A DNA stretch of 64,000 nt from an uncultured virus (IMG/VR IMGVR_UViG_3300015607_002766) (lineage: Duplodnaviria > Heunggongvirae > Uroviricota > Caudoviricetes). Below are positions 4,048 through 63,837 of this stretch, one piece after another. The stretch lies in the IMG/VR virus record IMGVR_UViG_3300015607_002766; one strand, written 5' to 3'. Position 1 is the stretch's first letter. Each line of letters begins with the position of its first letter. Position numbers and translations under genes: made by a program. The notes beneath the pieces were generated by a model. The model was not told where the DNA came from. It ran no database searches and worked only from the letters and a program-made list of their open reading frames with translations.

Positions 4048-4419
4048 ATGAAGACTGTTAAAATAAAATTAATTGAGCCTACTACCGAGAAATTAGCTTT
4101 TGTAAAGTTAATAAAAGATTGTAGTGGTCTTGGCTTGAAAGAATCTAAAGATTTGTGTGACAGCCTACATAGTTATCCTGAAAGAGTGTTTGAAATGCCT
4201 ATTCGTGATTGGGAAACTAAAGACTGGAATACTGGCACAACTACTTCCACTTCAACGGATTATCGTAAGAAGTTTGTCACTGAAATTAAAAATATTCAAG
4301 GTAAGTTTATAGTTAATGGTGGTGTTCAATGGGAGCGAGACGTTAAAATGTTGAAGCTTGGAATAGCTGAAAAATCTGACTATGGCGATGTAGAAGATAC
4401 TTCTTACGAGCATCTTTAG
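4048..4419 (+). CDS. protein with ribosomal L7/L12 C-terminal-like domain; 3' end disrupted
   Basis: EKLAFVKLIKDCSGLGLKESKDLCD matches the L7/L12 CTD pattern; collides with the opposite-strand gene near 4390-4410. Confidence 0.7.
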   Translation: MKTVKIKLIEPTTEKLAFVKLIKDCSGLGLKESKDLCDSLHSYPERVFEMPIRDWETKDWNTGTTTSTSTDYRKKFVTEIKNIQGKFIVNGGVQWERDVKMLKLGIAEKSDYGDVEDTSYEHL

Positions 4420-5068
4420 CAAAATCATAAGTAGCTTTATAAGCATTAGTAAATTGTTCTAATTCAGTGTCTGTTACAGGCATCTTAGCTGATGCTAATA
4501 ATGCTCTTACAAATCTACCAATTTTTATATTATTTCTTGATGTTGTCCAAATTCTCTGGTCTTCTGCTTCTTTAGGCTCCATTGCATCTTTGTTAATAAC
4601 ACCAATTCTTTCACCTTGATATTCTTTAAACATAACATAAACCTTACCTGAAGTTCTACTAACAGTTTCTGCTAAAATAATACCTATAGAACCAGTATCA
4701 GGTGCCCAGCAATTGTATGTTTCTTTGTCATAACCAAGTGCTTCAAATATTTTATTATTTTTATCACTTTTAGTTAGATATCTACCAGACTCAGTTATAA
4801 CCCAAGTTTCTGGTTTATCTTTTGTTAATTCTTGAACTTTTCTATCAGGAGTAAAACTAACAGCATCTTTCTGGTCGGTTATATCAATATAGTTCTGAGT
4901 AACACCATCAACATCTTTTGAATATAAATTCAAAACATCTGAAGCTATTTTATTAGATTTCATTTTATTTAAAAGATTAATGAAATTCTTTGAAAATACT
5001 ACTTTTGATTCAAGTAGAATTTCATAAACTTTTTGCTCAGAAATATAATCGCCGTATTTGAGAATCAT
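4343..5068 (-). CDS. hypothetical protein with MILKYGDYISE N-terminus; probably truncated at ~4405
   Basis: Late promoter upstream; C-terminus runs into antisense sequence of the neighbouring gene. Confidence 0.65.
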   Translation of the reverse strand: MILKYGDYISEQKVYEILLESKVVFSKNFINLLNKMKSNKIASDVLNLYSKDVDGVTQNYIDITDQKDAVSFTPDRKVQELTKDKPETWVITESGRYLTKSDKNNKIFEALGYDKETYNCWAPDTGSIGIILAETVSRTSGKVYVMFKEYQGERIGVINKDAMEPKEAEDQRIWTTSRNNIKIGRFVRALLASAKMPVTDTELEQFTNAYKATYDFAKDARKKYLLHRHSQIFQLFQASTF

Positions 5069-5179
5069 TTTATTAAAATATTTTTATTAGAATATATATT
5101 AATTTTGAAATTTTCAATATTTAATTTTTAATCACTTTGATCGAATAATATATAAATTACAAAAAAATAATCAAAACAC

Positions 5180-5419
5180 ATGAAGGATAAAGTTGCTGAT
5201 TTAATCAGAATAATTGGCGTTGGTTTTAATGAGTTAGTATTTGACTTTGTTATTGACGGAGTAACATTCAATTCAATTGAATGGGATCCTATTGAAGATA
5301 GAGTTCTTCTTCACATATTTGATGAAGAAAATGAGTTAGACCACCACTGTGATTTTGAGGGAATCGATATAGATAAACAAATAAAAGTATATAAAGTACT
5401 TTCAGCTTTCTTAAATTAA
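5180..5419 (+). CDS. hypothetical protein
   Basis: 79-aa acidic ORF. Confidence 0.6.
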   Translation: MKDKVADLIRIIGVGFNELVFDFVIDGVTFNSIEWDPIEDRVLLHIFDEENELDHHCDFEGIDIDKQIKVYKVLSAFLN

Positions 5420-6396
5420 ATGCTATTTAGCATTTGAATCATTTCTTTCTGAGGGAAAATGTCAAATTTATCTCTTCTTACCTGGCTGTGACTTCTGATA
5501 CCACCAGTCTTAAACCAATTATCATCATATTCAAACCATTTTTCATTGTAGATTCTACCATCTAGTTGAATATTATTTTTATTAACTAAATAAACAATAA
5601 GTTTTCTAGCACTTTCTAATTGAGCATCTGTATATCTCTCAAAATATTCATAACCTCTAAATGGTCTATCTAACTTAACAACATCCTTATCATTTATTGG
5701 CTTATTGACCCAGTTATACAATCTATCATCTTTACCTAAAGTAAGTGGCCCATAATTACATATTTCTATAGCAATTGATTGTGAATTTAATTCTAAAGAG
5801 TTATTACTATTTATACCTAAGTGATATGCCCAATACTTATCATCAAAAGCTCTAAGTATTTTTCCATCCCAAATAGATTCATCCGAAGTCGAAGATTTTC
5901 TACCTATAATATAAGAAGTGCCAACTCTTAATGGTTGTGTTTTACCATTAATGTCTAAAACAGGCTTACCCGTCTTGTCTTTTAAGAAGTCTTTTTCCCA
6001 ACCATTTATACTCCAGTCTGGTCTTGAACCACCAGCAGTATGATGTAACCATATTGTATTTTTTTGAGTTATCTCTTTTATATATTCATCATCGCTAATA
6101 AGGTGATCATAAATAGTTAATCCATTTTGATCAGCATAAGATATTTTATGTGGTATTCCATCATTTAATACTGGTTCTAATCCATAATTATTTAATTTAC
6201 TCCAAGTTAAAGAACCCACAACACCATCAGCTTTAACACCAACGGATCTTTGAAAGTTTGTAACAGATATAAGAGTGTTTTGACCAAAGAATCCATCGAT
6301 TCTTTCATTAAAGAATCCATGTTGTTTTAGTTTTGTTTGTAAATAAGTAACGTCTTCACCAGACATTCTTAATGATATCACTCTTTTTAATTTCAT
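5416..6396 (-). CDS. N-acetylmuramoyl-L-alanine amidase with N-terminal peptidoglycan-binding domain (endolysin-like)
   Basis: PG_binding_1 pattern (DGFFGQNT...FQ...DGVVG..TW); Amidase_2 motifs LHHTAG, AYHLG, SIAIEICN, HSQVRRDKFD. Confidence 0.9.
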   Translation of the reverse strand: MKLKRVISLRMSGEDVTYLQTKLKQHGFFNERIDGFFGQNTLISVTNFQRSVGVKADGVVGSLTWSKLNNYGLEPVLNDGIPHKISYADQNGLTIYDHLISDDEYIKEITQKNTIWLHHTAGGSRPDWSINGWEKDFLKDKTGKPVLDINGKTQPLRVGTSYIIGRKSSTSDESIWDGKILRAFDDKYWAYHLGINSNNSLELNSQSIAIEICNYGPLTLGKDDRLYNWVNKPINDKDVVKLDRPFRGYEYFERYTDAQLESARKLIVYLVNKNNIQLDGRIYNEKWFEYDDNWFKTGGIRSHSQVRRDKFDIFPQKEMIQMLNSI

Positions 6397-6399
6397 ATC

Positions 6400-8601: not shown

Positions 8602-9386
8602 ATGATGAAGAATATTGGATATTGTTGTATTCCTATGGGATGCAATGTAGGTAAGCCTAAAAAAGAACATATAACTGTAAATAGAGGTATGGTTCGTAAA
8701 ACATTTGATACCAAAGGTTTGCCTTATGTATCTGAGTTAGTAATTGAAAATCTTAAAGACACACTTAAAGTTCTTGACTGGAACTTGAAGAATCATATCT
8801 ATGTCTATCGTTTGAGCTCAGACTCTTTTCCTTGGATGTCTGAATATGAGTTTTCTGATATGCCTAAGTTTCCGGCTATTCAAACTTATATGCGTTTGAT
8901 TGGTGAAAAAATCAAATCAAATGATATTCGTGTCAGCTATCACCCAGGTCCATTCAATGTTTTAGCAAGTGAGAATCCATCAGTTGTTGAAAAAACAATC
9001 AAAGAACTAAACAAACATGCAGAGTTGATGGATTTAATGGGCTTAGACCAAACTACATTTTATCCAATCAATATTCATATCAACACTACTCAACCAACAA
9101 GAGAAGAAGCGGCNNNNNNNNNNNNNNNNNNNNNNNNNNNNNNNNNNNNNNNNNNNNNNNNNNNNNNNNNNNNNNNNNNNNNNCAACTTGGAATACACGA
9201 GCAATGACTCATATGAGTTCGCCAAAAACATTAGAAGATAACTCTGGAAAACAAACTGCACATGCTGACTATATTTATGAAGAAATTAAAACGTTCGGTC
9301 TTGACTTTGATACAGAAATTGAAGCCAAAGCAAAAGACTTGGCAGTATTCAAATACAGAGAGCAATTTAAAGTTCTCAAAGGGTGA
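8602..9386 (+). CDS. uvsE: UV DNA damage endonuclease (spans N gap 9114-9183)
   Basis: IGYCCI, YRLSSDSFPW, SYHPGPFNVLAS, INIHI; C-terminal part HMSS...AHADY...EAKAKDLA in ORF 9204..9386. Confidence 0.9.
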
Positions 9387-9621
9387 TCGTGTTGTAATTA
9401 TGACACGAGCATATGAAGATCTTAAATACAGAACTGGTAACATAGTTGCTGGTGGAGAGAGAACGCCTGATCTAAATGTGTATAGAGTTGCATTGGATTT
9501 ATATCCAAGTGGTTATCAACTACAACAACATTTGATACCTATTATCTTTGCTGAAGAAGAACTTCAGTTTGAAGATAATGCTAAAGAAAGAGATTGGAAG
9601 TTAAAACAAGTTTTGAAATGA
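9262..9621 (+). CDS. small SH3-like protein with C-terminal tag (ERDWKLKQVLK)
   Basis: KFSKGDRVV beta-barrel-like start; true start uncertain. Confidence 0.6.
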   Translation: MLTIFMKKLKRSVLTLIQKLKPKQKTWQYSNTESNLKFSKGDRVVIMTRAYEDLKYRTGNIVAGGERTPDLNVYRVALDLYPSGYQLQQHLIPIIFAEEELQFEDNAKERDWKLKQVLK

Positions 9622-9959
9622 TAAAGAAGTTACTTTCTATATTCAAAAAGAAAGAAGAAGATAAGACCTATGGTTTTATTAAATATGACCGAGGTGATGA
9701 AGTCAAAGTAACTATTTACTCTGAAGTGCCAGAATTTTGGTATAAAGGTAAAGTATTAGATATCAATGCTAGATATGTAATACCTTCAATCGAATCAAGT
9801 TGGAAAGTAGAATACTATGTTTCTTTTCCTAATAGTAAGGGTAATGAATTAAGATACTGGTTCTCAGAATCAGAGTTAAGAAAATACTCTTTACAAGAAG
9901 AAAGAAATTCAAGAATAGAACAAATATTAAATTATGAGAATACAACAGATACAAGATAA
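9618..9959 (+). CDS. small protein with C-terminal tag (ERNSRIEQILN)
   Basis: KYDRGDEVKV; coupled ATGA start. Confidence 0.65.
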   Translation: MIKKLLSIFKKKEEDKTYGFIKYDRGDEVKVTIYSEVPEFWYKGKVLDINARYVIPSIESSWKVEYYVSFPNSKGNELRYWFSESELRKYSLQEERNSRIEQILNYENTTDTR

Positions 9960-10431
9960 AATTTTAGAGAATAATAACTTGATTAAGGCTTTGCAGAATC
10001 AGGTTGCTCAGTTGAGTAGAGAAAACTCTGAACTAGCTCATCAACGTGAAATGAAACTAATTGAATATTTCAAAGATTATATTGAATTAGGTACAAGTTA
10101 TAAGGTAACTAATTGGATGTATTTGACGGGTGTTCAAACTAGTCTTAAAAAAGATGAGAAGTCACATTCTCCAAATTTTCAAACTGATGATGTTTTTGAG
10201 TTTGTTAAAAAGAATGCTAAATCTATAGTTATTAAATGTACCAATAAAGTTAAAAGTACATATAATTCTAATAATTCATCAAGAACAATTGAGATTATAG
10301 AAAATCCAGGTTGGATGTTTCGTATTGAGACACTAAGTCTTTATCAGTCCTTACTAAAAGATCCAAACTTTGCTGAGCCATTCAAGAAATATGTAGCCAG
10401 AAAAGAAGCATTAGATATGCTTGGTATATAA
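9934..10431 (+). CDS. hypothetical protein with degenerate C-terminal tag (RKEALDMLGI)
   Basis: 165-aa ORF. Confidence 0.7.
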   Translation: MRIQQIQDKILENNNLIKALQNQVAQLSRENSELAHQREMKLIEYFKDYIELGTSYKVTNWMYLTGVQTSLKKDEKSHSPNFQTDDVFEFVKKNAKSIVIKCTNKVKSTYNSNNSSRTIEIIENPGWMFRIETLSLYQSLLKDPNFAEPFKKYVARKEALDMLGI

Positions 10432-12156: not shown

Positions 12157-12654
12157 TTATTGTAATATTTCTTCTAATTTATTATCTCTTTCTTCGTATT
12201 TTTCGGTTATATCAGCACATCTCAACCTATAAGATGTTTTTAGATTAGTTAAATCTACATACTTCATAATTGAAAATAAAACAAATTTTTTCCATCTGTT
12301 TTTGTTAAAGAACTCATCCATTTCAATGTCTGATTCAAACTCATGAGTTACTGTATTATATTGTCTTGATACAATCTTATTACCTTCAACTTTAATTATC
12401 TGAAACGATGGTAGATTTGATACATATGAAATTTTATTCCAATGCTTATCTAAAAAGTCACCTAACCAAAGTGTTGGGTCAACAGTAGCCATTCTAACAT
12501 TAGAATTTTCGCTACCCATTCTAAAACAGTTTTCAATTAAAACCTTTAATCCTTCTAAATTATTCTCACCAATTGGATAAACTGAAATTGATTTTGAATC
12601 AATAGTTCCACCAGTTTGTTGATTTATATTTGATATGAAATCTTTAAATATCAT
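12157..12654 (-). CDS. hypothetical protein with C-terminal tag (ERDNKLEEILQ)
   Basis: 165-aa ORF. Confidence 0.7.
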   Translation of the reverse strand: MIFKDFISNINQQTGGTIDSKSISVYPIGENNLEGLKVLIENCFRMGSENSNVRMATVDPTLWLGDFLDKHWNKISYVSNLPSFQIIKVEGNKIVSRQYNTVTHEFESDIEMDEFFNKNRWKKFVLFSIMKYVDLTNLKTSYRLRCADITEKYEERDNKLEEILQ

Positions 12655-13338: not shown

Positions 13339-13744
13339 ATTTAACAATCTCAATTTTAGCCTCTCTTAGAAAATCTAAACCTGAGGTATCTTTATAGTCT
13401 TCTAAATAAACTAATCTTTTTATTCCAGATTGTAGTATAAGTTTAGAACAATCTTTACAAGGAGAGTGTGTTTGATATAAAGTTGCACCATCACAAGAGT
13501 GTCCGTGCTTAGCACATTTCAAAATAGCATTTGCTTCACCATGTATAACATACCAGTTTGTATCACCATCTGAATTTTCACAAGAGTTATCAAAACCAGT
13601 TGGTGTGCCATTATAACCATCAGAAATAATCATACCATTCTTAACTATTAAAGCACCAACTTGCTTTCTGGTGCAGTGTGAAAGTTTGGCCCATTCTTTA
13701 GCCATATTCAAATAAGTTCTATCATATCTCTCTTTCTTCGTCAT
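13322..13744 (-). CDS. dCMP deaminase
   Basis: SHCTRKQVGA, GYNGTP, HGEANAI, SPCKDC. Confidence 0.93.
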   Translation of the reverse strand: MTKKERYDRTYLNMAKEWAKLSHCTRKQVGALIVKNGMIISDGYNGTPTGFDNSCENSDGDTNWYVIHGEANAILKCAKHGHSCDGATLYQTHSPCKDCSKLILQSGIKRLVYLEDYKDTSGLDFLREAKIEIVKYGQGT

Positions 13745-13904
13745 TGAATATTCTATTTATTTTACTCTTTCTAATATCGTTTTTATTTAAGTTAAACATC
13801 TTCATAAGATAATCTTTTGAAAAATACAAATTATCATAAGTATTGATTTGTTCAGTTAATACTTTTATTCTATCTTGATAAATTTCTATTTTTTCTTTAT
13901 ACAT
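13722..13904 (-). CDS. micro-protein: portal (gp20-like) C-terminal fragment plus tag RKSKINRIFN
   Basis: EKIEIYQDRIKVL...YFSKDYLMKMFNLNKNDI resembles the T4-type portal crown region. Confidence 0.55.
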   Translation of the reverse strand: MYKEKIEIYQDRIKVLTEQINTYDNLYFSKDYLMKMFNLNKNDIRKSKINRIFNDEEREI

Positions 13905-14055
13905 TGAATATGCTCATTATTTTAATTCTTCTAAGATATTTTCTAAAGGATTTACGATATACTTTTTCATCATAAATTCTACCATTACCTGGATATGTAT
14001 TATCAAATATTTGTAAAACACCGGTTAGTTTAATTATATCTTTACCTTTATACAT
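13897..14055 (-). CDS. micro-protein: prohead protease (gp21-like) N-terminal fragment plus tag RRIKIMSIFN
   Basis: KLTGVLQIFDNTYPGNGRIYDEKV resembles gp21 GxxQxxDxxNxNGRIY; ATG overlaps the upstream stop. Confidence 0.65.
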   Translation of the reverse strand: MYKGKDIIKLTGVLQIFDNTYPGNGRIYDEKVYRKSFRKYLRRIKIMSIFNV

Positions 14056-14269
14056 TGAATATCTTTTGAATTGAATTTTTTCTTCTTTTATTTCTATCTG
14101 GTTCAAATCCTAAATTTCTTAAAATATCTCTGTCAATTTCTCTTGCTATCTGATTAGATAACATAGCAGATAATTGATCAGCTATGTCAATTCCGTAAGC
14201 ACTGCTTAGTTTATCAGCCTCAGAGTTTGAATATATCTCTCCACCAGCCCCTGTCTTAATTTTTTTCAC
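14048..14269 (-). CDS. micro-protein: major capsid (gp23-like) fragment plus tag RKNSIQKIFN
   Basis: YGIDIADQLSAMLSNQIAREIDRDILRNL resembles gp23-type HxxDAEAELxxxLSxQIxxEIDREILxxL. Confidence 0.75.
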   Translation of the reverse strand: MKKIKTGAGGEIYSNSEADKLSSAYGIDIADQLSAMLSNQIAREIDRDILRNLGFEPDRNKRRKNSIQKIFNV

Positions 14270-14447
14270 CGAATATTCTAATTATTTTTTCTTTTCTATA
14301 AGAGGATCTTTGATCGCTATAAACATCTTGTATCATTTGAGCAACACTAGGTGATGTCACCATGTAATTACCATATCCTCTTTTAGAACTTTTATTTATA
14401 ACATTTGAGACTTTTAATAGCTTATCAATTAGATCTTTGTTATCCAT
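14256..14447 (-). CDS. micro-protein: second major capsid (gp23-like) fragment plus tag RKEKIIRIFG
   Basis: KVSNVINKSSKRGYGNYMVTSPSVAQMI resembles gp23-type IxxxTxRGxGNxxVxSPxVAxxL. Confidence 0.72.
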   Translation of the reverse strand: MDNKDLIDKLLKVSNVINKSSKRGYGNYMVTSPSVAQMIQDVYSDQRSSYRKEKIIRIFGEKN

Positions 14448-17192: not shown

Positions 17193-17621
17193 TTATTTCA
17201 ATACTTCGTTGATTTTTCTATCTCGTTCTAAAACTCTGAACTTAATCTTTAAGTATTCTTCTATTTCATCTGGGAGAGAAATATTATTCTTTTTCAACTC
17301 ATTATAGAATGGTTTTCCTAAAACATTTAATGTTGAAATGGCAACAGCTAAGTGGGGATCTGCATAACCATCAACTTCAATATCTTCACCTAGAACATGA
17401 TAAGTGGTTTTTTGTAGAGTATAATTTATGGTGCTTCCACCATAAACTAAATATGAACCATTAGTAGTTGCTGTTGTAATTGTAGAGTTTGTACCAGATA
17501 TAGAAATAACTCCAGAACTACCAGTTAGACCCAATGAACCTGAAACAGAAGGTGTGCCATAAATAGGAGAACCTATTGCACTTGTATGAACTGTCTGACC
17601 GCCTATATTTACAAAACCCAT
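17193..17621 (-). CDS. hypothetical protein, Ser/Gly/Thr-rich N-terminus, C-terminal tag (ERDRKINEVLK)
   Basis: 142-aa ORF. Confidence 0.7.
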   Translation of the reverse strand: MGFVNIGGQTVHTSAIGSPIYGTPSVSGSLGLTGSSGVISISGTNSTITTATTNGSYLVYGGSTINYTLQKTTYHVLGEDIEVDGYADPHLAVAISTLNVLGKPFYNELKKNNISLPDEIEEYLKIKFRVLERDRKINEVLK

Positions 17622-17651: not shown

Positions 17652-18139
17652 TTATATAATCTTACTAATTTGAATATGTCTGTATAAAGATTGGAACTCG
17701 TCTCTTATTTCTTTACAGTAATCAAAATGTTTTTTATTGGAATAATAATCCCAAGACTGATGGTTTATTTTTTTCAAAACACTTTCATAGACACCCTTAA
17801 CTAAATTAAAACAGTTTTCTCTATCAGTCCATTTAACTAAATTATCAACTAAGTCAAAATCAATCTTCTTAAACTCATTAAAGAAAGTGTCTTTTGCGTA
17901 AGAAAGTAAATAGTGACGTATAACTTTTCATGGTAATCAAAAACACCTTTTGGATTAGAAAACTCAGGTGTTGTAAGATAAAACTCAACCTTTAGCTAAA
18001 TGTGTAGTTCATTATGTCTGATGCCATTTACATCCTCGAAACCACGCCACCAATTATTAGTTTGAGTATTTCTCTTCAAACGTCTAACTAAATGCTTTTC
18101 TTTAATATGTCTGCGCCATGCGCGATCTCGGATCATCAT
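17652..18139 (-). pseudogene. disrupted coding region: N-terminal fragment MMIRDRAWRRH... plus a frameshifted C-terminal fragment ending YRHIQISKII
   Basis: Manual translation; breaks near 17995 and 17920; TAnnTTTG promoter just upstream. Confidence 0.55.
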
Positions 18140-24302: not shown

Positions 24303-24683
24303 GTGAATGATGATAGGAATCATTTTATAATTAAAAATCAAATAGTTAAACTTGATGATGTTATTGAAGTCAAAGAAGGCTTTTTTGAATCACAATCAAA
24401 AACTATTGCTGGTAAATACAAACTTCAATTAGTTAATCTAAAAGATATAGATGTTTTTATTAAAGGTATTGCAAAACGAGAATTCTTTCATTGGGAAGAT
24501 GGTGCTCATTTAGATTTAATTAAAAAACATTTTCAAAAAACACCACCGGTTATTCTTGAAGAATTTAACGGTAAATATTATTCAGTTGATGGTCATCATC
24601 GAATAACAGTTGCCAATGAATTAGGTCTAAACAATATACTATCATTTGTTATAAAAGTAAATAAACTAACCTATACAAGATGA
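24303..24683 (+). CDS. ParB/Srx-like domain protein
   Basis: PPVIL...YSVDGHHRITVA. Confidence 0.7.
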   Translation: MNDDRNHFIIKNQIVKLDDVIEVKEGFFESQSKTIAGKYKLQLVNLKDIDVFIKGIAKREFFHWEDGAHLDLIKKHFQKTPPVILEEFNGKYYSVDGHHRITVANELGLNNILSFVIKVNKLTYTR

Positions 24684-31928: not shown

Positions 31929-32000
31929 ATCTTGAAAAAAGAATTTACTCTATATATTAAAAATCTTTGTTTTTGTTTTTATTTTTGGTATATTTGTGAA

Positions 32001-44111: not shown

Positions 44112-44396
44112 ATGACTGAAGTAGATATTTGGATTAAAGTATTTGATAAACTCCATTTTAAGTTTATAGAAGAATATTGCTCTCAAAGTAAAATAAACTT
44201 TTTGGTTTATCGTAATGATTATAGAGGTGACGGTAATTACACAGGTGACTATAGATTGTACTTTAATAGAGAAACTGATGAAGTTTTATCTTTGTTTATT
44301 AATAATAGCACTGAAAATCAAACTACTAAGCAGTTATTTGTAGAAGAAAACAAAAGCCTATTCAGAGAAGTGAAATTATTGTCCATCATGAACTAA
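44112..44396 (+). CDS. hypothetical protein with C-terminal tag (FREVKLLSIMN)
   Basis: ORF 4 nt after TATCTTTG. Confidence 0.7.
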   Translation: MTEVDIWIKVFDKLHFKFIEEYCSQSKINFLVYRNDYRGDGNYTGDYRLYFNRETDEVLSLFINNSTENQTTKQLFVEENKSLFREVKLLSIMN

Positions 44397-45266: not shown

Positions 45267-45813
45267 TTTTGATGGAGTGATGTGTCTATCCACTGAATGG
45301 GGTGGTAGAAGCAAAAAGAAGGCAAAGTACTCAAAGGAGTTTCCAGGTACTTATGATGAAAATATGCCTGCTTGGGTAAAGATGGATAACTTTAATGATA
45401 AAGCAGTTAAAGTATTAAACTCAATCTTAGAACAAACTGGTGCTGAGATCGTTGTTAGTTCAGATTGGAAGTTATATTGTACTTTAGATGAACTAAAAGA
45501 AATGTTTACTAAGTATGGTGTTATTAAGCAACCAATTGATACTACTCCTAATATTACTTTGAAGTATGATAAGAGCTATTATACAAAAGGTGAATTAGCT
45601 GAGTATAGAACCATGGAAGTTAAACAATGGTTAAAGGAGCATCCAGAAGTAACTCATTGGGTTGCTGTTGATGATTTGCCTTTAGGTGAGTTATATGGTC
45701 CTATCTCTGGTAACTTTCTTGGTGGATTGAAAAACTTTGTCTTAACACCAAAAAGTTCTGAAGGTATTAAACAATCCGGTATTAAAGAAAAAATATTAAA
45801 GTTCTTACTGTGA
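45247..45813 (+). CDS. HAD-domain protein (Swiss-Army-Knife RNA-repair-like)
   Basis: ILFLDFDGVM, IVVSSDWK, WVAVDDL. Confidence 0.85.
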   Translation: MKILFLDFDGVMCLSTEWGGRSKKKAKYSKEFPGTYDENMPAWVKMDNFNDKAVKVLNSILEQTGAEIVVSSDWKLYCTLDELKEMFTKYGVIKQPIDTTPNITLKYDKSYYTKGELAEYRTMEVKQWLKEHPEVTHWVAVDDLPLGELYGPISGNFLGGLKNFVLTPKSSEGIKQSGIKEKILKFLL

Positions 45814-46277
45814 TATACAGATTAGATTTTCCTACACTACATGAATGGAATAACTGTAACTCTTCTAATACAAAGATATTAGAGTCAGTTCATAAGTTAG
45901 TTCAAGATTCATTATTGCTCTATAGATATAGAGTTAAGAAGTCTATTGAAAATAAATTTGGTGTAAATGATCCAGAGAAGATAAACTTTGATTTGATAAA
46001 ACAGAAATCAATTATTGTTTATCATTTAGATATCTTCAAGGAAAAGCCTACTTTGATTAATGACTTAATTAAGTTTTGTTTAGAAACGAATAGAGACTTA
46101 TTTATACCAACTCAACAAAATAGATACTATGGAACTGATGGTAATTACAGAAAGAAACACGAATATAAATTTGATATAGCACTTGAGTTAGATGCTTATG
46201 ATTATCAATACTATGATATGTCTAACGATAGTTCCTTAGTGCAATTAAAAAGGGAGTTAGTTCTTAACTCCCTTTAA
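45810..46277 (+). CDS. hypothetical protein with degenerate C-terminal tag (LKRELVLNSL)
   Basis: 155-aa ORF. Confidence 0.65.
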   Translation: MIYRLDFPTLHEWNNCNSSNTKILESVHKLVQDSLLLYRYRVKKSIENKFGVNDPEKINFDLIKQKSIIVYHLDIFKEKPTLINDLIKFCLETNRDLFIPTQQNRYYGTDGNYRKKHEYKFDIALELDAYDYQYYDMSNDSSLVQLKRELVLNSL

Positions 46278-56689: not shown

Positions 56690-56884
56690 ATGAAAATAGA
56701 TGTTGACTTTATAGAATTTTATATAAAAAAGAAGTATAGCCAGAAATTAGAAGAATACTTTAGTGTGACTAAATCAGTATCGTCTGCTTGGCGTAACGAT
56801 CGTTTTCCTGAAAAAAGATTACATGAGTTTGTATATAAGGAAGGAACCTCAGATATAATTGAACTGCTTAAAAGAATTTACTAA
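56690..56884 (+). CDS. small HTH-like protein
   Basis: LEEYFSVTKSVSSAWR. Confidence 0.55.
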   Translation: MKIDVDFIEFYIKKKYSQKLEEYFSVTKSVSSAWRNDRFPEKRLHEFVYKEGTSDIIELLKRIY

Positions 56885-56976
56885 TGACTATAAGAGATTA
56901 TCAAATAAAAGTTATTAAACATTTTAGAAAAAGTCTAAGACATAGAAAAATATCAAAAATTTTTGGTTTATCTTAA
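56884..56976 (+). CDS. 30-aa micro-protein MTIRDYQIKVIKHFRKSLRHRKISKIFGLS with C-terminal tag
   Basis: ATG overlaps the upstream TAA; ends RHRKISKIFG. Confidence 0.5.
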   Translation: MTIRDYQIKVIKHFRKSLRHRKISKIFGLS

Positions 56977-58725: not shown

Positions 58726-59862
58726 ATGGCTGACATTAAAAACAAAACAATGCCTGCTTTCATAGCAGAGAAACTCTCAACTCTCACTGATAAAGAGCGT
58801 AAGTATTTCGCTATCATGTGGGCGAAGTATGGTGTATTGAATATCACATCTAAACCAGGTGTTGCTAAATCCACTATCGGTAGATCAATTGCCGAGAAGA
58901 TGAATTTCCGATACATGGATATTCGTTTGTCAATGGTTGACGAAACTGACGTAGGTCTTTATCCAAACGTTAGTGAAGTTGAAGTTGACGGTAAAATGGT
59001 GAAGTGTTTGGACTTCGTTGTTCCTCGTTGGGCGATTGAGGCTAACAAGCAACCAACCATCATTCACTTTGAAGAGTTGAACCGTGCTTCCCAGCAAGTT
59101 CGTAATGCTGCTCTTCAAATCCTTCTTGAGCGTCAGATTGGTACTGACTTCCGTTTCAACGAAAACGTTCTGATGATGTCGTCAGGTAACCTTGGTGACG
59201 AAGACGGTACAGACGTTGAAGAATTTGACTCCGCTCTTAACAACCGTTTGGTTCATATTAACCACACTTTGAGTGTTGATGAATGGATTAAAGACTTCGC
59301 TATGACTAACTGTCACAAGTTAATCACAAGCTTCATCAAAGCTCACCCAGAGCAGATGTACAAAAATGCCACTGACAACGTTAAGGCATATGCTACACCA
59401 CGTTCTTGGACTATGTTGTCTGAGTTCATCGTAGCCAACTATGGTCAAGATGCATCACCTCGTGAGTTCTTGCCTTTGTTGAAAGAAGTTGCTTCTGGTT
59501 ACATTGGTAACTCTGCTGTGAAGTTTGTTCAGTACTGCGAAGATATGTTGAATATCTCTATCCAAGACGTAATCAACAACTACGACGGTATCAAGAAAGA
59601 CCTTGAGAAGTACAACCGTGATAAGAACTCTGAATTGATTCAATCTTTGAAAGAGATCGATATCACCAAGTTGAATAAGAAACAACTTGACAACGTTGTG
59701 AAGTTCTTGAACAACGTGGGTGATGATGAAAAGACCGCCTACTTACTTTACATCCTTGATAACATCGCGGATGTTACAAACCCAACCTTGAAGTCTTTCT
59801 TGCTTCAGTTCGAAGACCTTCTTCGTACTATCAAGAAAATCAACAAGCCTGGTAGTAAGTAA
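58726..59862 (+). CDS. MoxR-like AAA+ ATPase
   Basis: Walker A SKPGVAKST, IHFEELNRA, LQILLER, SGN, ALNNR, ATPRSW. Confidence 0.88.
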   Translation: MADIKNKTMPAFIAEKLSTLTDKERKYFAIMWAKYGVLNITSKPGVAKSTIGRSIAEKMNFRYMDIRLSMVDETDVGLYPNVSEVEVDGKMVKCLDFVVPRWAIEANKQPTIIHFEELNRASQQVRNAALQILLERQIGTDFRFNENVLMMSSGNLGDEDGTDVEEFDSALNNRLVHINHTLSVDEWIKDFAMTNCHKLITSFIKAHPEQMYKNATDNVKAYATPRSWTMLSEFIVANYGQDASPREFLPLLKEVASGYIGNSAVKFVQYCEDMLNISIQDVINNYDGIKKDLEKYNRDKNSELIQSLKEIDITKLNKKQLDNVVKFLNNVGDDEKTAYLLYILDNIADVTNPTLKSFLLQFEDLLRTIKKINKPGSK

Positions 59863-61691: not shown

Positions 61692-62048
61692 ATGTTTGAG
61701 ATAAATAAGATGTTTATTTCAAAAATTGGCTGGTCTACATACACAAGTTCTATGTGGAGACCGCCCATTTCTATTAAAAACGTTTTAGATACTGAGAATA
61801 TTATTTATTATATTCAACCTGTAAGTTCTGAAAAAACATTTTTAATTAGTGAGTTTAGTGATAAACAAAATAAAATTAAACAATATAAATTTATAATAGT
61901 AAACAATAATCAGTCTCAAATTGATATATTAGGTTCAATTCAAATTGAAATTAAATCAAACTTAGATTTAATGAAATTAGTAAGAGATTTTGAAGCTTGT
62001 AATGAAGAATATAAAAGGCACTTTAAATTAAATAAATTATTAAAATGA
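61692..62048 (+). CDS. hypothetical protein with C-terminal tag (YKRHFKLNKLLK)
   Basis: 118-aa ORF. Confidence 0.65.
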   Translation: MFEINKMFISKIGWSTYTSSMWRPPISIKNVLDTENIIYYIQPVSSEKTFLISEFSDKQNKIKQYKFIIVNNNQSQIDILGSIQIEIKSNLDLMKLVRDFEACNEEYKRHFKLNKLLK

Positions 62049-62647
62049 AAAAAGAAGTAAAAGTTCTAGGTCTATCCTACAGTCAATCAAACTCTGGTTC
62101 ATATGTTGTAGTTCTTTCAGAAAAGAAAGGTAAAAGAAAACTACCTATTGTTATCAAGCCATCTGATGCTCAACAAATTGCCTTAAAGATTGAAGGTGTT
62201 AAATCACCAAGACCTTTAACACACGACTTGTTTAGATCAATCACTGATTCATATCAAATTGATGTTCAAGAGGTTTATATCTATGCGATTCTTGAAGGAA
62301 TTTTCTACACAAAGTTAGTAACCACTAATGGTGTTGAAGAAGCTGAAGTAGATTGTACTGCTGGTGATGGTATTGCTCTTTCTATTGTCTATGATTGTCC
62401 ATTATATGTAGCTAAAGAAGTTTTAGAAATATCAGGCGTTTATATTAATGACGATGGTTCTTCTATGGCTCCTACAGAAGTTGAAGAAGAAGAGGAATAC
62501 GAAGAAGTTGAAGAAGTTCCTGTTAAACGAGTTGTTTCTATTGAAGACTTAGAGCATATGATTGAAGATGCTATTCGTAATGAGGAATATGAAATTGCTG
62601 CTGAGATTCGTGATAGAATTGAGCAATTAAAAAAAGAAAATAAGTAA
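62045..62647 (+). CDS. bifunctional nuclease (DUF151) with C-terminal UVR domain
   Basis: LPIVI, PRPLTHDL, DGIAL, AIRNEEYEIAAEIRD. Confidence 0.88.
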   Translation: MKKEVKVLGLSYSQSNSGSYVVVLSEKKGKRKLPIVIKPSDAQQIALKIEGVKSPRPLTHDLFRSITDSYQIDVQEVYIYAILEGIFYTKLVTTNGVEEAEVDCTAGDGIALSIVYDCPLYVAKEVLEISGVYINDDGSSMAPTEVEEEEEYEEVEEVPVKRVVSIEDLEHMIEDAIRNEEYEIAAEIRDRIEQLKKENK

Positions 62648-62648
62648 A

Positions 62649-63485
62649 ATGGCATTAAGTTATATCGGTGGTAAAAGTAAAATAGGAACTTGGATTAGAA
62701 ATTACATTCCAAATAACATAGAAACTTATGTAGAACCATTCTCAGGGATGTTCTGGGTATTCTTTAAATTGAATACACCAAGTTTCAAAAATCTAAAAAG
62801 AGTTGTTTATAATGATGTTAATCCCTTAAACGTAAATCTTTATCTTTGTCTTAAAGACTATAAGAAGTTTTGGGAAATGACTCAAAACACACCGATTGAA
62901 AGTAAAGAGTTGTTTGACAAATGTAAGTCAGATTTATTTGATACAGAATTTGTGTTAGATAAAGAAAATCCAAACTTTGATATTGCTTTCAAATATGCTT
63001 ATGTTCTAAGCCAAGTTTGGTCTGGTACAGACCCTCGAAAAGGTAACCTTATCTTAAAAGGTGGCTACGAAGGTAAAGATGGTGTTTATAAATCTAAGTT
63101 TGAAATCTTTAGAAGTAAGTTAATTGATCCAAAATGGCAGAAGCTACTTGACTCGATTACTCACATCGAGAATTTAGACTTTGAAGAGGTTATTAAGAAA
63201 TATGATTCACCGACTACTTACTTTTATTGTGACCCACCATACTTCAAAACCGAAGACTATTATATAAACCACGACTTTGGTGTTCAAACACACGAAAGAT
63301 TAGCTAACAGCTTAAAGTCTATTCAAGGTAAGTTTTCACTAAGTTATTATCATTTTGATTTATTGGATGATTGGTTTCCTCAAGATACCTACAACTGGAA
63401 GACAAAAGAATTTGCTAAGACGGCAATGGCTGTTCCAGGTAAAGCTCAAACTAAAGGTACGGAGCTTCTAATAATGAATTACTGA
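62649..63485 (+). CDS. Dam-like DNA adenine methyltransferase
   Basis: YIGGKS, YVEPFSG, FYCDPPY. Confidence 0.9.
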   Translation: MALSYIGGKSKIGTWIRNYIPNNIETYVEPFSGMFWVFFKLNTPSFKNLKRVVYNDVNPLNVNLYLCLKDYKKFWEMTQNTPIESKELFDKCKSDLFDTEFVLDKENPNFDIAFKYAYVLSQVWSGTDPRKGNLILKGGYEGKDGVYKSKFEIFRSKLIDPKWQKLLDSITHIENLDFEEVIKKYDSPTTYFYCDPPYFKTEDYYINHDFGVQTHERLANSLKSIQGKFSLSYYHFDLLDDWFPQDTYNWKTKEFAKTAMAVPGKAQTKGTELLIMNY

Positions 63486-63486
63486 T

Positions 63487-63837
63487 ATGATACTATTAAC
63501 ATGTCAGTTATTATTTGAAGGTGGTACAGGTGATAGAATACTAACATCTATTGTTTATGATGAAAATAAAAGTAGATTTGTCAAAATAAGTCAAAAGATA
63601 TCACCAGAGCTAGTACAAGATCTATCAGCATCAAATCCAATGGTTGATATAATGGATGTAATTAGTTTAGATTATATGGATTATGTTTTCAAAGAGGAAG
63701 AGTTAGAAGATATATTTGAAATGATTGAGGATGGACCGGACAATGATATAGTTAATAAAGCAAAAGAATTTATCAAATCATATAGAAGAGATATTAAAAT
63801 AAAAAAAATAGTCAATGAAATACAAAAAGATAATTAA
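63487..63837 (+). CDS. hypothetical protein with C-terminal tag (YRRDIKIKKIVN)
   Basis: 116-aa ORF. Confidence 0.65.
   Translation: MILLTCQLLFEGGTGDRILTSIVYDENKSRFVKISQKISPELVQDLSASNPMVDIMDVISLDYMDYVFKEEELEDIFEMIEDGPDNDIVNKAKEFIKSYRRDIKIKKIVNEIQKDN

What the first reader, a model, noticed from the sequence alone, without database searches (positions are those of the whole stretch)
4048..63837. Shared C-terminal helix tag R-[DENKH]-x-K-[IL]-x-x-[IL]-[ILF] on about 28 unrelated proteins
Seen at or near the C-termini (ORF start coordinates): ERDWKLKQVLK (9262), ERNSRIEQILN (9618), ERDNKLEEILQ (12157), ERDRKINEVLK (17193), YRHIQISKII (17652), KRHQIIKKII (24680), LRDMKIGNII (32001), YRDNKLNKILN (33927), VRDESIDKLLQ (34357), ERQEKLDLVL (34638), VREKKLNQIL (35072), IRDHKLKKII (36082), QRDKKLEQILK (37900), SRNSRIDDILN (38178), YREYKLEKLGI (39048), LRDRKIEDLLK (39491), VRDAKINII (39797), MRDSKINKIIK (40247), FREVKLLSIMN (44112), KRHFKLNKLLK (61692) and RRDIKIKKIVN (63487). 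It is also on the micro-proteins, in degenerate form at 9934 and 45810, and internal at 4048 (ERDVKMLKLGI). The protein bodies are unrelated (30-580 aa). The tag is absent from recognisable enzymes and from the MKYLKxFNE class. Inference: a docking helix for one common partner, giving a library of variable N-terminal baits with a constant C-terminal box, conceptually like poxviral ANK/F-box adaptors. The partner could be a protease/chaperone, RNA polymerase or an intracellular compartment. I do not know of a description of this motif.
Basis: partly seen in the sequence, partly recalled or inferred. Interest (0 to 1): 0.9.

Follow-up and report, generated by a model that had tools for sequence, protein, structure and literature searches.

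The report
Shared C-terminal address tag, huge phage
About one protein in five on this piece of an uncultured huge phage of Bacteroidota, all small and otherwise unrelated, ends in the same short arginine-containing helix, which looks like an undescribed address label whose reader is still unknown.

Summary
In 113 ORFs of the window, 22 carry R-[DENHQK]-x-[KRQS]-[ILM]-x-x-[ILV]-[ILFM] within 12 residues of the C-terminus against 1 internal hit; shuffles give 0.08-0.13. The closest record, the 634-kb phage LR745206, carries it on 104 of 1014 ORFs. Nine tag-less phage genomes give only background.

Selection acts mainly on the peptide. Bodies are unrelated (99 singletons among 121) and 0 of 94 reach a Pfam cut-off. 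In 12 of 13 ortholog pairs both members keep the tag.

Related 636-kb and 735-kb phages carry the same kind of tag in their own genome-wide "dialects", R-K-x-x-I-x-x-L and R-T-K-L-[IM]-D-x-M-L. That argues for one co-evolving reader.

The MoxR/vWA-metallopeptidase pair and a phage Hsp70 both occur in tag-less phages. A phage M16 peptidase fits the phyletic pattern, but so do 24 other proteins.

This scan had already noted the same tag on other DNA (e1-5675155, e1-5924823, e1-6007390, e1-5758617). Five full-text searches and passages of five papers showed no description of it.

The parts
9262..9621 (+). tagged ORF, 119 aa, ...KERDWKLKQVLK
   Evidence: strict motif, tag at 9589-9615, 1 residue after it
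9594..9959 (+). tagged ORF, 121 aa, ...EERNSRIEQILNYENTTDTR
   Evidence: strict, tag 9903-9929
9934..10431 (+). degenerate tag, 165 aa, ...ARKEALDMLGI
   Evidence: loose motif; LR745206 homolog ends ...ARNSALKKLLDI
12157..12654 (-). tagged ORF, 165 aa, ...EERDNKLEEILQ
   Evidence: strict, tag 12163-12189
13722..13904 (-). mini-ORF, 60 aa, R-K variant ...IRKSKINRIFNDEEREI
   Evidence: strict
14048..14269 (-). mini-ORF, 73 aa, Gp23 fragment plus ...RRKNSIQKIFNV
   Evidence: Pfam Gp23 26.2 bits over profile positions 161-196; tag 14057-14083
14256..14447 (-). mini-ORF, 63 aa, Gp23 fragment plus ...YRKEKIIRIFGEKN
   Evidence: Pfam Gp23 22.9 bits, below the cut-off; tag 14271-14297
17193..17621 (-). 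tagged ORF, 142 aa, ...LERDRKINEVLK
   Evidence: strict; ortholog in LR745206 keeps the tag
17652..17777 (-). tagged micro-ORF, 41 aa, ...YRHIQISKII
   Evidence: strict; homolog in LR745206 ends ...YRDIQINMIL
24680..25033 (+). tagged ORF, 117 aa, ...KRHQIIKKII
   Evidence: loose motif
31914..32474 (+). tagged ORF, 186 aa, ...LRDMKIGNII
   Evidence: strict
33927..34382 (+). tagged ORF, 151 aa, ...YRDNKLNKILNVFGLSGK
   Evidence: strict; the ortholog's tag is identical at the protein level, with 6 synonymous codon changes
34357..34638 (+). tagged ORF, 93 aa, ...VRDESIDKLLQ
   Evidence: strict
34638..35069 (+). tagged ORF, 143 aa, ...RERQEKLDLVLSKELEDLFKF
   Evidence: strict
35072..35434 (+). tagged ORF, 120 aa, ...VREKKLNQIL
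   Evidence: strict; body matches phrog_3972, function unknown
36082..36351 (+). tagged ORF, 89 aa, ...IRDHKLKKII
   Evidence: strict
37900..38181 (+). tagged ORF, 93 aa, ...QRDKKLEQILK
   Evidence: strict
38178..38921 (+). tagged ORF, 247 aa, ...SRNSRIDDILN
   Evidence: strict; ortholog 43% identical overall, tag 9 of 10 residues
39048..39491 (+). tagged ORF, 147 aa, ...YREYKLEKLGI
   Evidence: loose
39491..39787 (+). tagged ORF, 98 aa (P0002), ...LRDRKIEDLLK
   Evidence: R89 invariant in 93 homologs; AlphaFold2 puts the tag in helix 85-97
39797..40207 (+). variant tag, 136 aa, ...VRDAKINIINDDDN
   Evidence: read; spacing one residue shorter, not counted by my regexes
40247..41989 (+). largest tagged ORF, 580 aa, ...MRDSKINKIIK
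   Evidence: strict; the 731-aa ortholog keeps a tag
44112..44396 (+). tagged ORF, 94 aa, ...FREVKLLSIMN
   Evidence: strict
45810..46277 (+). degenerate tag, 155 aa, ...LKRELVLNSL
   Evidence: read; not counted by my regexes
56884..56976 (+). micro-ORF, 30 aa, ...LRHRKISKIFGLS
   Evidence: strict
61692..62048 (+). tagged ORF, 118 aa, ...YKRHFKLNKLLK
   Evidence: in 42 homologs the last 12 residues have 0.39 bits entropy against 1.45 for the body; helix 105-117
63487..63837 (+). tagged ORF, 116 aa, ...RRDIKIKKIVNEIQKDN
   Evidence: loose
4343..5068 (-). doubtful tag ...HRHSQIFQLFQASTF at a synteny breakpoint
   Evidence: strict regex hit, but the 418-aa LR745206 ortholog has none; homology to relatives starts at about 4404
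4048..4419 (+). ORF with internal tag-like ERDVKMLKLGI, 18 residues from the end
   Evidence: overlaps 4343-5068(-)
1759..2868 (-). candidate reader (unproven): M16 peptidase, HLMEH zinc motif
   Evidence: Pfam M16 and M16_C; HxxEH at residue 34; found in the 3 tag-bearing records, not in 10 tag-less ones
42520..44058 (+). candidate reader (unproven): zincin metallopeptidase-vWA protein (DUF2201)
   Evidence: Pfam; HEDFH and DTSGS read; lies inside the tagged gene array
58726..59862 (+). candidate reader (unproven): MoxR-type AAA+ ATPase
   Evidence: Pfam AAA_5/AAA_3, below the curated cut-offs; phrog_1297 E 1.4e-52

Best explanation
The motif is a portable C-terminal address or docking peptide. 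It is a short helix of about 14 residues, often N-capped: hydrophobic-[ST]-x-x-E-hydrophobic-R-[DEN]-x-K-[IL]-x-x-[IL]-[LIF], followed by 0-9 polar residues and the stop. It sits at the end of many unrelated, small, soluble, fast-evolving proteins of a clade of huge (Mahaphage-type) phages of Bacteroidota.

Shown: it is kept mainly as a peptide; it sits on unrelated bodies; it marks 10-20% of ORFs; and whole genomes shift together from one version to another (R-D in this lineage, R-K in LR756504, R-T-K-L in LR756501).

Inferred: one proteinaceous reader that co-evolves with the tag binds it, and so gathers, sorts, processes or times this whole class of accessory proteins. None exceeds about one in five.
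For: Enrichment: 22 C-terminal against 1 internal strict hits in 113 window ORFs; shuffles give 0.08-0.13. LR745206 has 104 C-terminal and 21 internal hits in 1014 ORFs. A tag profile finds 110 places in LR745206 and 28-65 in six related IMG/VR contigs of 313-508 kb.

Controls: a de novo scan for C-terminal gapped triplets gives top p values of 2e-59 (LR745206), 1e-75 (LR756504, first 400 kb) and 7e-18 (LR756501, first 320 kb). T4, T5, phiKZ, PA5oct, LIT1, nomine, K479, G012 and G013 give 1e-4 to 3e-8.

Peptide level: R is coded by AGA, CGT, CGA, CGC and AGG. Codon choice at R0, D1, K3 and I4 matches the genome (p 0.73, 1, 0.22, 0.72). In 12 ortholog pairs the tag is 68% identical against 49.5% for the body, and half of the changed tag codons are synonymous against 30% in the body. 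In 12 of 13 window-LR745206 pairs both members carry the tag. R89 is invariant in 93 homologs of one family. In a second family the tag is the most conserved part (0.39 against 1.45 bits).

Unrelated bodies: 99 singletons among 121 bodies, and one paralogous pair inside LR745206. 0 of 94 reach a Pfam cut-off. Two AlphaFold2 models have different secondary-structure layouts, each ending in the tag helix.

Dialects: R-K-x-x-I-x-x-L on 72 of 645 ORFs of LR756504, and R-T-K-L-[IM]-D-x-M-L on at least 18 of 470 ORFs of LR756501, on mostly unrelated bodies. The window-dialect profile finds only 3 and 0 places in those two records.

Tagged genes cluster: 22 adjacent pairs against 10.6 expected.
Against: No binding was shown and no reader was found.

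In one of the two families examined, the tag as a whole is not more conserved than the body (1.10 against 0.91 bits); only L88, R89 and K92 are fixed. In 3 of 12 ortholog pairs the tag is less identical than the body (34638, 39491, 40247).

Codon choice is not neutral at the 3' end of the tag. I7 is ATA in 58 of 71 cases, against 52% genome-wide and 56% in the last six codons of untagged genes (p 2e-5). L8 is mildly TTA-biased. I cannot explain this. It leaves room for a nucleotide-level component, or for recent spread of the tag-coding DNA.

The dialect argument rests on three lineages.

Mini-ORFs made of fragments of capsid, head and polymerase genes also carry a tag, which a pure 'functional effector' picture does not predict.

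My gene sets are longest-ORF calls, not curated annotations.
Confidence: 0.6

Rival explanations
1. The tag is a processing or degradation signal for a phage peptidase: the M16 (pitrilysin/MPP-like) peptidase at 1759-2868, or the zincin metallopeptidase-vWA protein at 42520-44058 working with the MoxR ATPase at 58726-59862. The enzyme recognises the arginine helix and removes the tag or destroys the protein, timing the action of accessory proteins.
For: Both peptidases keep their metal motifs: HLMEH; HEDFH plus a DTSGS MIDAS-like motif. M16 is found in the three tag-bearing records (two copies in LR756501) and not in tag-less LR756500, G012, G013 or seven control phages. From recalled knowledge, MPP-type M16 enzymes read basic targeting peptides through a key arginine. 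Kaur et al. 2020 (PMC7159879, section 'Peptide-processing systems', passages read) describe zincin peptidases that cut a conserved C-terminal peptide off small, rapidly diverging proteins, coupled to vWA-MoxR systems. Iyer et al. 2021 (PMC7824862, passage read) describe the phage pair and propose peptidolytic processing. The vWA gene lies inside the tagged array.
Against: 24 other LR745206 proteins share the M16 phyletic pattern, and two of the three tag-bearing records were only partly fetched. The DUF2201_N/MoxR pair is present in LIT1, nomine, PA5oct and K479 (4 of 4) without any C-terminal tag above background, and in tag-less LR756500. No conserved cleavage site is evident upstream of the tag. 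From recalled knowledge, MPP presequences are N-terminal.
Confidence: 0.22
2. The tag docks on a host machine, for example the N-domain of an unfoldase such as ClpX, Lon, the ribosome or RNA polymerase. The small proteins would then be degrons or adaptors that hand bound host targets to that machine. Dialects would follow the host.
For: Tagged proteins are small, orphan, fast-evolving and clustered, as host-takeover genes usually are. Only 7 of 104 tagged LR745206 proteins have any homolog in three related huge phages. The net charge is +1.5, with two or three aliphatic residues near the C-terminus. From recall, this is loosely like the C-terminal ClpX-binding peptide of SspB and the MuA-type ClpX signal.
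Against: Nothing was tested: the hosts are unknown beyond the phylum and no host protein was examined. The resemblance to ClpX signals is recalled, not measured.
Confidence: 0.15
3. The tag is a head-packaging signal: a C-terminal counterpart of the T4 capsid targeting sequence or of encapsulin cargo peptides. It would load many accessory proteins into the very large capsid for injection.
For: The phage is T4-like in its head gene (Pfam Gp23). T4 internal proteins are diverse and share only a targeting sequence (PMC3012670, passages read). Several tagged mini-ORFs are pieces of the capsid protein or of its neighbouring head gene.
Against: The tag is C-terminal, and no conserved L/I-x-E site precedes it (E at -2 in 20 of 104; L or I at -4 in 30 of 104). 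A separate N-terminal class MK[YH]LKxFNE, which from recall looks like the T4 targeting sequence, already exists on at least 29 LR745206 ORFs and overlaps the tag once. More than 100 packaged species would be without precedent.
Confidence: 0.1
4. The tag recruits the phage-encoded Hsp70 (or host DnaK), either as a client motif or as a docking helix.
For: A full-length Hsp70 (E 3e-251, ending ...SYEEV) is encoded in LR745206, LR756504 and LR756501 but not in tag-less LR756500. From recalled knowledge, DnaK prefers aliphatic cores flanked by basic residues.
Against: G012 and G013 (96% and 94% complete by CheckV) encode Hsp70 homologs 61-62% identical to that of LR745206 and have no C-terminal tag above background. 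The tag carries acidic or polar residues between its hydrophobic positions and needs an invariant arginine, unlike promiscuous DnaK sites. In this window the position where relatives carry Hsp70 holds other DNA, so its presence in this phage is unknown.
Confidence: 0.06
5. There is no dedicated reader. The helix is a generic structural ending (a cap that stabilises or solubilises small proteins), or the trace of common descent or repeated recombination of the 3' ends of genes.
For: AlphaFold2 models it as a regular helix of moderate confidence, with last-block pLDDT of 78 and 68. ATA is over-used at I7 and tagged genes cluster, as spread by local duplication or recombination would give. Junk-like gene fragments also carry it.
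Against: An invariant arginine and genome-wide concerted changes at +1 to +3 (D, K, T-K-L) are not expected of a generic cap. Synonymous turnover is high: 38 of 120 tag codons differ synonymously between orthologs. Bodies show no residual similarity.
Confidence: 0.1

Closest known systems
Capsid targeting sequence (CTS) of T4 internal proteins (PMC3012670, passages read)
   Same: A short conserved peptide is the only thing shared by a diverse, fast-evolving set of phage accessory proteins. It is read by one partner (the scaffolding core). The setting is a T4-like phage.
   Different: The CTS is N-terminal, marks only a handful of proteins, and is cut off by the prohead protease (recalled). The tag here is C-terminal, marks 10-20% of ORFs and has no evident cleavage site. 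Packaging is untested.
Peptide-processing modules coupled to vWA-MoxR systems (Kaur et al. 2020, PMC7159879) and the MoxR/metallopeptidase-vWA pair of group 2.2 jumbo phages (Iyer et al. 2021, PMC7824862)
   Same: A zincin peptidase, a vWA domain and a MoxR ATPase are encoded here. The published modules involve small, rapidly diverging proteins with a conserved C-terminal peptide.
   Different: The published systems have one or a few precursor genes next to the peptidase, with FxSxx, RxD, acidic or FtsH-associated motifs. Here there are about 100 scattered genes with a different motif. The pair also occurs in phages without any tag.
Encapsulin cargo-loading peptides; peroxisomal PTS1 and similar C-terminal sorting signals (recalled)
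   Same: A C-terminal portable peptide on unrelated cargo, read by one receptor.
   Different: There is no sequence likeness. No compartment or receptor is known here. The tag need not be at the very end: 0-12 residues follow it.
SspB C-terminal ClpX-binding peptide and MuA-type C-terminal ClpX signal (recalled)
   Same: Short, basic-plus-aliphatic C-terminal peptides that tether proteins to an unfoldase. This fits an adaptor reading of 'variable body plus constant box'.
   Different: The consensus is different.
   Same: The logic of a variable N-terminal part and a constant C-terminal box shared by many paralog-like genes of a large virus.
   Different: PRANC is a folded domain of about 40 residues on ankyrin-repeat proteins. 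Here the box is about 14 residues and the bodies share no fold or family.

Membership tests
T4-type capsid targeting sequence | N-terminal position | tested here: not met
   104 of 125 strict hits in LR745206 lie within 12 residues of the C-terminus
T4-type capsid targeting sequence | Adjacent prohead-protease site (L/I-x-E, recalled) | tested here: not met
   E at -2 in 20 of 104; L or I at -4 in 30 of 104
T4-type capsid targeting sequence | Carriers are packaged in the head | not testable with these tools
   no virion proteome for these uncultured phages
vWA-MoxR coupled peptide-processing system (Kaur 2020) | Zincin metallopeptidase, vWA and MoxR genes present | tested here: met
   Pfam DUF2201_N and DUF2201; AAA_5/AAA_3 below their curated cut-offs; phrog_1297 E 1.4e-52; HEDFH and DTSGS; present in all four huge-phage records
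vWA-MoxR coupled peptide-processing system (Kaur 2020) | Small, rapidly diverging precursor with a conserved C-terminal peptide of the FxSxx, RxD, acidic or FtsH type | tested here: inconclusive
   small diverging proteins with a conserved C-terminus: yes. The motif R-[DEN]-x-K-[IL]-x-x-[IL]-[LIF] is none of the four named types as worded in the passages read; I did not see their alignments
vWA-MoxR coupled peptide-processing system (Kaur 2020) | Tag and peptidase pair occur together | tested here: not met
   pair without tag in LIT1, nomine, PA5oct and K479 (4 of 4) and in LR756500
MinD/FtsA-type membrane-targeting amphipathic helix | Strongly amphipathic C-terminal helix | tested here: not met
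   mean helical hydrophobic moment 0.21 against 0.26 for all 14-mers; 59% of background 14-mers are at or above the tag mean; mean hydrophobicity -0.23
Sliding-clamp binding tail (PIP-box or T4 gp43 type) | Present on the replicative polymerase and co-varying with it | tested here: not met
   PolB C-terminal tails are ...VVMDIFGGFK...LTFTLSLF...LIYSSSLF and an acidic tail in the four records, unlike the local tag dialects
Sliding-clamp binding tail (PIP-box or T4 gp43 type) | A clamp gene is present | tested here: inconclusive
   Pfam gp45-slide_C not found in any of the four records at E<=1; other clamp families were not searched
M16/MPP targeting presequence | Basic peptide with a key arginine near the cleavage site | tested here: inconclusive
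   arginine fixed and net charge +1.5, but the position is C-terminal and no cleavage site is known
Poxviral PRANC/F-box-like adaptors | Folded F-box-like domain on repeat-domain proteins | tested here: not met
   no Pfam domain on 94 of 94 tagged proteins; the tag profile has 20 positions
Group I intron or other known RNA element at the gene ends | Rfam match | tested here: not met
   only one tRNA reaches a gathering score in the window

The most novel reading that the evidence does not exclude
The largest known phages run a genome-wide protein addressing code. One ORF in five to ten carries a lineage-specific C-terminal address helix, read by a dedicated phage-encoded machine. An M16-type or vWA-linked peptidase, or an unannotated protein among the 25 phyletic candidates, would be that machine. 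It would sort, process or time a whole arsenal of orphan effectors, much as organelles read targeting peptides. The tag would then be a computational handle on the effector set of huge phages.
Probability: 0.3. Interest if true: 0.9.

Novelty: new variant of a known kind. Interest (0 to 1): 0.75.

Why it matters
Most genes of huge phages are orphans with no handle for study. A tag shared by 10-20% of them defines a functional class from sequence alone. It also gives a simple experimental entry point: tag peptides, reporter fusions and dialect swaps.

Tried and rejected
1. Complex prediction of the vWA-metallopeptidase (alignment A2) with tagged protein P0002 (alignment A1) scored 0.01 and gave no verdict. 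It is evidence for nothing.

2. DNA-level motif: rejected on codon variety and synonymous turnover, except for the unexplained ATA excess at I7.

3. Nascent-peptide signal for termination-reinitiation: tagged genes are tightly coupled to a downstream start in 39 of 103 cases against 250 of 909 (p 0.04). 62% are not coupled, and 0-12 residues follow the tag. Rejected.

4. Membrane-targeting helix: not amphipathic beyond background. A TM-like segment occurs in 6 of 104 tagged against 115 of 910 untagged proteins.

5. Clamp-binding tail: polymerase tails differ from the tags.

6. Divergent paralog family: 99 of 121 bodies are singletons.

7. Pairing of the C-tag with the N-terminal MKYLKxFNE class: the two occur independently. 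LR756500 has the N-class and no tag. The fetched part of LR756501 has the tag and no N-class by my regex.

8. Tail-specific (S41) protease as reader: the only link was P0281, a short 854-base contig that reads from a tag into an S41 domain, probably a chimera. No S41 family match in the four records.

9. Introns behind the Gp23 fragments: no Rfam hit.

10. 'Pair implies tag' and 'Hsp70 implies tag': both fail.

11. A profile of the tag against PDB sequences: best E 1.3. Foldseek of both models against PDB: no match at E<=0.001.

12. TATAAATA as a class marker: within 60 nt upstream of 1 of 104 tagged genes and 37 of 910 others, and not upstream of the capsid gene. Uninformative.

13. The C-terminal ...NADDFGF[FL]DN of LR756500 is mostly one paralog family (8 of 15 linked), not a portable tag.

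Full report
WHAT THE WINDOW IS. The window has 28-35% G+C and is densely packed with ORFs. My greedy longest-ORF set has 114 ORFs covering 94% of it. Pfam finds T4-like and huge-phage functions: topoisomerase II subunits, dCMP deaminase, a 5'-3' exonuclease, NusG, several DNA methylases, homing endonucleases, a rhomboid protease, an M16 peptidase, a MoxR-type ATPase and a metallopeptidase-vWA protein. There is also a protein with a type IX secretion CHU_C domain, which points to a Bacteroidota host. The topoisomerase A subunit is 78% identical to those of the uncultured phages LR745206 (634,780 bp) and LR756502 (642,428 bp), 55-57% to LR756504 and LR756500, and 38% to LR756501 (735,411 bp). 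Al-Shayeb et al. 2020 (PMC7162821, passages read) state that their five genomes above 634 kb belong to the Mahaphage clade and are predicted to infect Bacteroidetes. No whole genome is held for the window, so I used these records as stand-ins.

THE OBSERVATION. With R-[DENHQK]-x-[KRQS]-[ILM]-x-x-[ILV]-[ILFM], 22 hits lie within 12 residues of the C-terminus of the 113 usable ORFs and 1 is internal. That is a per-position rate ratio of about 175. 1000 shuffles of each protein give 0.08 C-terminal hits (maximum 2). Shuffling only the last 25 residues, which keeps local composition, gives 0.13 (maximum 2). Reversed sequences give none. A looser pattern gives 26 C-terminal and 7 internal hits. The single strict internal hit lies in the PolyA_pol head domain of the CCA-adding enzyme. 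The hit in 4343-5068(-) and the internal copy in 4048-4419 both sit at a synteny breakpoint and are doubtful members.

EXTENT. I fetched LR745206 whole. Of 1014 ORFs, 104 carry the strict motif at the C-terminus and 21 carry it internally. The aligned instances extend the motif upstream to an N-capping pattern. The counts out of 104 are: F/T at -5; K at -4 (36); S at -3 (24); E at -2 (20); I/L/V at -1 (55); R at 0; D/E/N at +1 (88); K at +3 (91); I/L at +4 (103); N/K/D at +5; I/L/V at +7; L/I/F at +8. The stop most often follows one or two residues later. The positions that the regex fixes are of course biased, but independent support exists. In 93 homologs of the 98-aa protein P0002, taken from a 5.8-billion-protein collection, R89 is invariant and L88 and K92 are at least 90% conserved. 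In 42 homologs of the 118-aa protein 61692, down to 38% identity, E101, A102, Y107, R109, K112 and L117 are invariant. A 20-position profile of 75 tags finds 110 places in LR745206, 28-65 in six related IMG/VR contigs of 313-508 kb, and 1 in LR756500.

CONTROLS ON OTHER PHAGES. I wrote a de novo scan that compares gapped residue triplets in the last 16 residues with the rest of the proteome. Its best p value is 2e-59 in LR745206 (R..KI, 78 proteins). In nine genomes without a tag the best values are 1e-4 to 3e-8. These are T4 (35% G+C), PA5oct (33%), phiKZ, T5, LIT1, nomine, K479 and the IMG/VR contigs G012 and G013. Composition therefore does not produce such a signal.

PEPTIDE OR NUCLEOTIDE? 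In the window the arginine is coded by AGA, CGT, CGA, CGC and AGG, and leucine by TTA, TTG and CTT. In LR745206 the synonymous codon choice at R0, D1, K3 and I4 equals that of the genome (p 0.73, 1, 0.22, 0.72). In 12 ortholog pairs between window and LR745206, the ten tag codons are 68% identical at the protein level against 49.5% for the bodies. Among changed codons, half are synonymous in the tag against 30% in the body. In 12 of 13 pairs both members carry the tag.

Against a purely peptide-level account, three results must be stated. In 3 of the 12 pairs the tag is less conserved than the body. In the P0002 family the last 12 residues are not more conserved overall than the body (1.10 against 0.91 bits), whereas in the 61692 family they clearly are (0.39 against 1.45). 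And ATA is used for I7 in 58 of 71 cases, against 52% genome-wide and 56% in the last six codons of untagged genes (p 2e-5), with a milder TTA excess at L8. I have no explanation for the last point.

THE BODIES. After removing the tag, BLASTP at 1e-3 leaves 99 singletons among 121 bodies. Ten of the eleven linked pairs are window-LR745206 orthologs, and only one pair is paralogous within LR745206. None of 94 tagged LR745206 proteins of at least 60 aa reaches a Pfam cut-off; two have sub-threshold hits. Of 29 tagged or tag-like window ORFs, PHROGs names a function for none. One matches phrog_3972 of unknown function, and two are capsid-protein fragments. Tagged proteins are short (median 105 aa against 148.5) and rarely have a TM-like segment (6 of 104 against 115 of 910). 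They are also lineage-specific: only 7 of 104 have any BLASTP hit in LR756500 or in the fetched parts of LR756504 and LR756501. They cluster, with 22 adjacent pairs against 10.6 in shuffles (maximum 22 in 2000).

Two AlphaFold2 models were built with alignments. P0002 has pLDDT 81.6, with strands followed by helices 74-80 and 85-97. The 61692 protein has pLDDT 85.0, with a different order of strands and helices ending in helix 105-117. In both, the tag is a terminal helix after a short break, and the last block has lower confidence than the core in the second model (68). Neither model matches a PDB fold at E<=0.001. I had no coordinates, so I cannot say whether the helix packs on the body.

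DIALECTS. LR756504 (first 400 kb) has R...I..L in 72 of 645 ORFs (p 1e-75), mostly as R-K-x-[KR]-I-x-x-L-[LI]. Only 17 of its ORFs fit the window's strict pattern. LR756501 (first 320 kb) has [FL]-x-x-x-E-[FW]-K-N-[FWY]-x-R-T-K-L-[IM]-D-x-M-L-N on at least 18 of 470 ORFs. These lie in arrays at 215-223 and 274-278 kb, and only 3 body pairs are related. The window-dialect profile finds 3 and 0 places in these two records, so the versions are distinct and genome-wide. LR756500, fetched whole, has 1 strict hit in 732 ORFs. Its enriched C-terminal ...NADDFGF[FL]DN belongs mostly to one paralog family that also carries the MKY[IL]K N-terminus. A concerted change at +1 (D to K to T) across 20-100 unrelated genes is most simply explained by one reader that changed with them. 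This rests on three lineages.

(a) MoxR/vWA-metallopeptidase pair. This was proposed in earlier notes of this scan and described by Iyer et al. 2021. It is present in the window with intact HEDFH and DTSGS motifs, and in all four huge-phage records. But the family is also present in LIT1, nomine, PA5oct and K479, none of which has a tag above background, and in tag-less LR756500. MoxR homologs occur in 696 phage records. The pair is therefore not sufficient for a tag, and its co-occurrence with the tag carries little weight.

(b) Phage Hsp70. It occurs in the three tag-bearing records and not in LR756500. However, G012 and G013, which are near-complete by CheckV, have it without any tag.

(c) M16 peptidase (window 1759-2868, HLMEH). 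It occurs in the three tag-bearing records and in none of ten tag-less genomes. But 24 other LR745206 proteins share this pattern, including EF-G, aminoacyl-tRNA synthetases, a TPM phosphatase, a small putative phage metallopeptidase and unannotated proteins. Two of the three tag-bearing records were only partly fetched.

(d) A sliding clamp. This is unlikely, because the polymerase tails do not resemble the local dialects.

(e) A host reader could not be examined.

OTHER MECHANISMS. A membrane-targeting helix is unlikely: the helical moment is 0.21 against a background of 0.26. A nascent-peptide role in reinitiation is unlikely: 38% of tagged genes are tightly coupled against 28%, and the distance to the stop varies. 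A known RNA element is excluded at Rfam gathering scores.

LITERATURE. Full-text searches for vWA-MoxR peptide systems, huge-phage C-terminal motifs, phage MoxR/vWA early proteins, huge-phage Hsp70 and 'Mahaphage' returned nothing describing such a tag. I judged this from search listings and abstracts. I read passages only of PMC7824862, PMC7159879, PMC12619734, PMC3012670 and PMC7162821. The main texts of PMC7162821 and PMC12619734 contain no occurrence of 'C-terminal'. I opened no supplements, and they could hold motif tables. Resemblances to the T4 targeting sequence, MinD, ClpX signals, PIP boxes, MPP presequences and encapsulin peptides are recalled knowledge, apart from what the cited passages say.

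VERDICT. This is a real, strongly non-random and mainly peptide-selected C-terminal helix tag on a fifth of the window's ORFs. It is shared, with lineage-specific versions, by the largest known phages. The best reading is an address or docking label read by one co-evolving partner (0.6). The partner and the outcome of reading are unknown. Earlier windows of this scan reported the same tag.
- the quantitative controls;
- the three-dialect comparison;
- the finding that neither the MoxR/vWA pair nor Hsp70 is sufficient for a tag;
- the M16 peptidase and 24 other phyletic candidates;
- the unexplained ATA bias at I7.

Noticed in passing
window 453-707(-), 6989-7552(-), 29674-30300(-), 30339-30926, 46279-47313(-), 47344-47598(-), 47632-48501, 50040-51176, 51233-51808; LR745206 (29 ORFs): A second shared peptide, at the N-terminus: MK[YH][LI]Kx[FY]xE... 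on otherwise different proteins. From recall it resembles the T4 capsid targeting sequence with its protease site. In LR756500 most proteins of this class also end in ...NADDFGF[FL]DN.
   Followed up: partly
window 13722-14447(-), beside the HNH-like ORF 14432-15211; L009:3154-3390 and L015:7176-7904 (LR745206): Mini-ORFs made of fragments of conserved phage genes, each ending in an R-K type tag. They include major capsid protein Gp23 pieces, a PolB motif-A piece with DFASLYPS, and a 243-aa capsid-like paralog. The R-K form is the main dialect of LR756504, so these may be imported fragments.
   Followed up: partly
window 51233-53473: The CCA-adding enzyme is split into a head-domain ORF (51233-51808) and an RNA-binding ORF (52889-53473) by a 347-aa ORF (51859-52902). 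The LR745206 ortholog is one 390-aa gene.
   Followed up: no
window about 4.0-4.4 kb: Synteny breakpoint. To the right of about 4404 the window matches the DNA that in many relatives lies just downstream of a phage Hsp70 gene. To the left it matches LR745206 at 309-313 kb. ORF 4343-5068 is shortened to 241 aa against 418.
   Followed up: partly
L028:13636-15507 (LR745206 473636-475510): A full-length phage Hsp70/DnaK (624 aa) ending in ...SYEEV. From recall this is reminiscent of the eukaryotic EEVD tail. 247 IMG/VR contigs encode a relative.
   Followed up: partly
L016:12803-14341 and L011:10571-11992 (LR745206): The family B DNA polymerase is encoded as two genes about 100 kb apart on opposite strands. 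The N part ends, and the C part begins, in charged stretches that look like coiled coils on inspection only.
   Followed up: no
window 12110-12124(-), 35460-35474(+), 44415-44429(+): Three exact copies of TTAATATATAAATAA. Each lies between the stop of a tagged gene and a homing-endonuclease-like gene (GIY-YIG 11327-12097, 35489-36085, NUMOD3 44445-45266). With 2 mismatches there are 10 matches against 4.05 expected, and 3 of 100 shuffles reach 10.
   Followed up: partly
tag position I7 in LR745206: The ATA codon is used in 58 of 71 isoleucines at tag position +7, against 56% at the ends of untagged genes (p 2e-5). Unexplained.
   Followed up: partly
window 55989-56081(-) and 56968-57093(-): Two short ORFs that both start MLYKDKE[RT]FLI flank the 56.1-56.9 kb stretch, which suggests a repeated element.
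   Followed up: no
window 9114-9183: A run of 70 N inside ORF 8602-9207.
   Followed up: no
window 57944-58018: A single tRNA with anticodon CAT, called tRNA-Met by ARAGORN. In an ATA-rich genome it could be an isoleucine tRNA read after lysidine modification (recalled idea, not tested).
   Followed up: no
protein P0281: A 169-aa metagenomic protein reads from the 61692-type tag straight into a tail-specific protease (S41) domain on an 854-base contig. It is probably an assembly chimera.
   Followed up: yes
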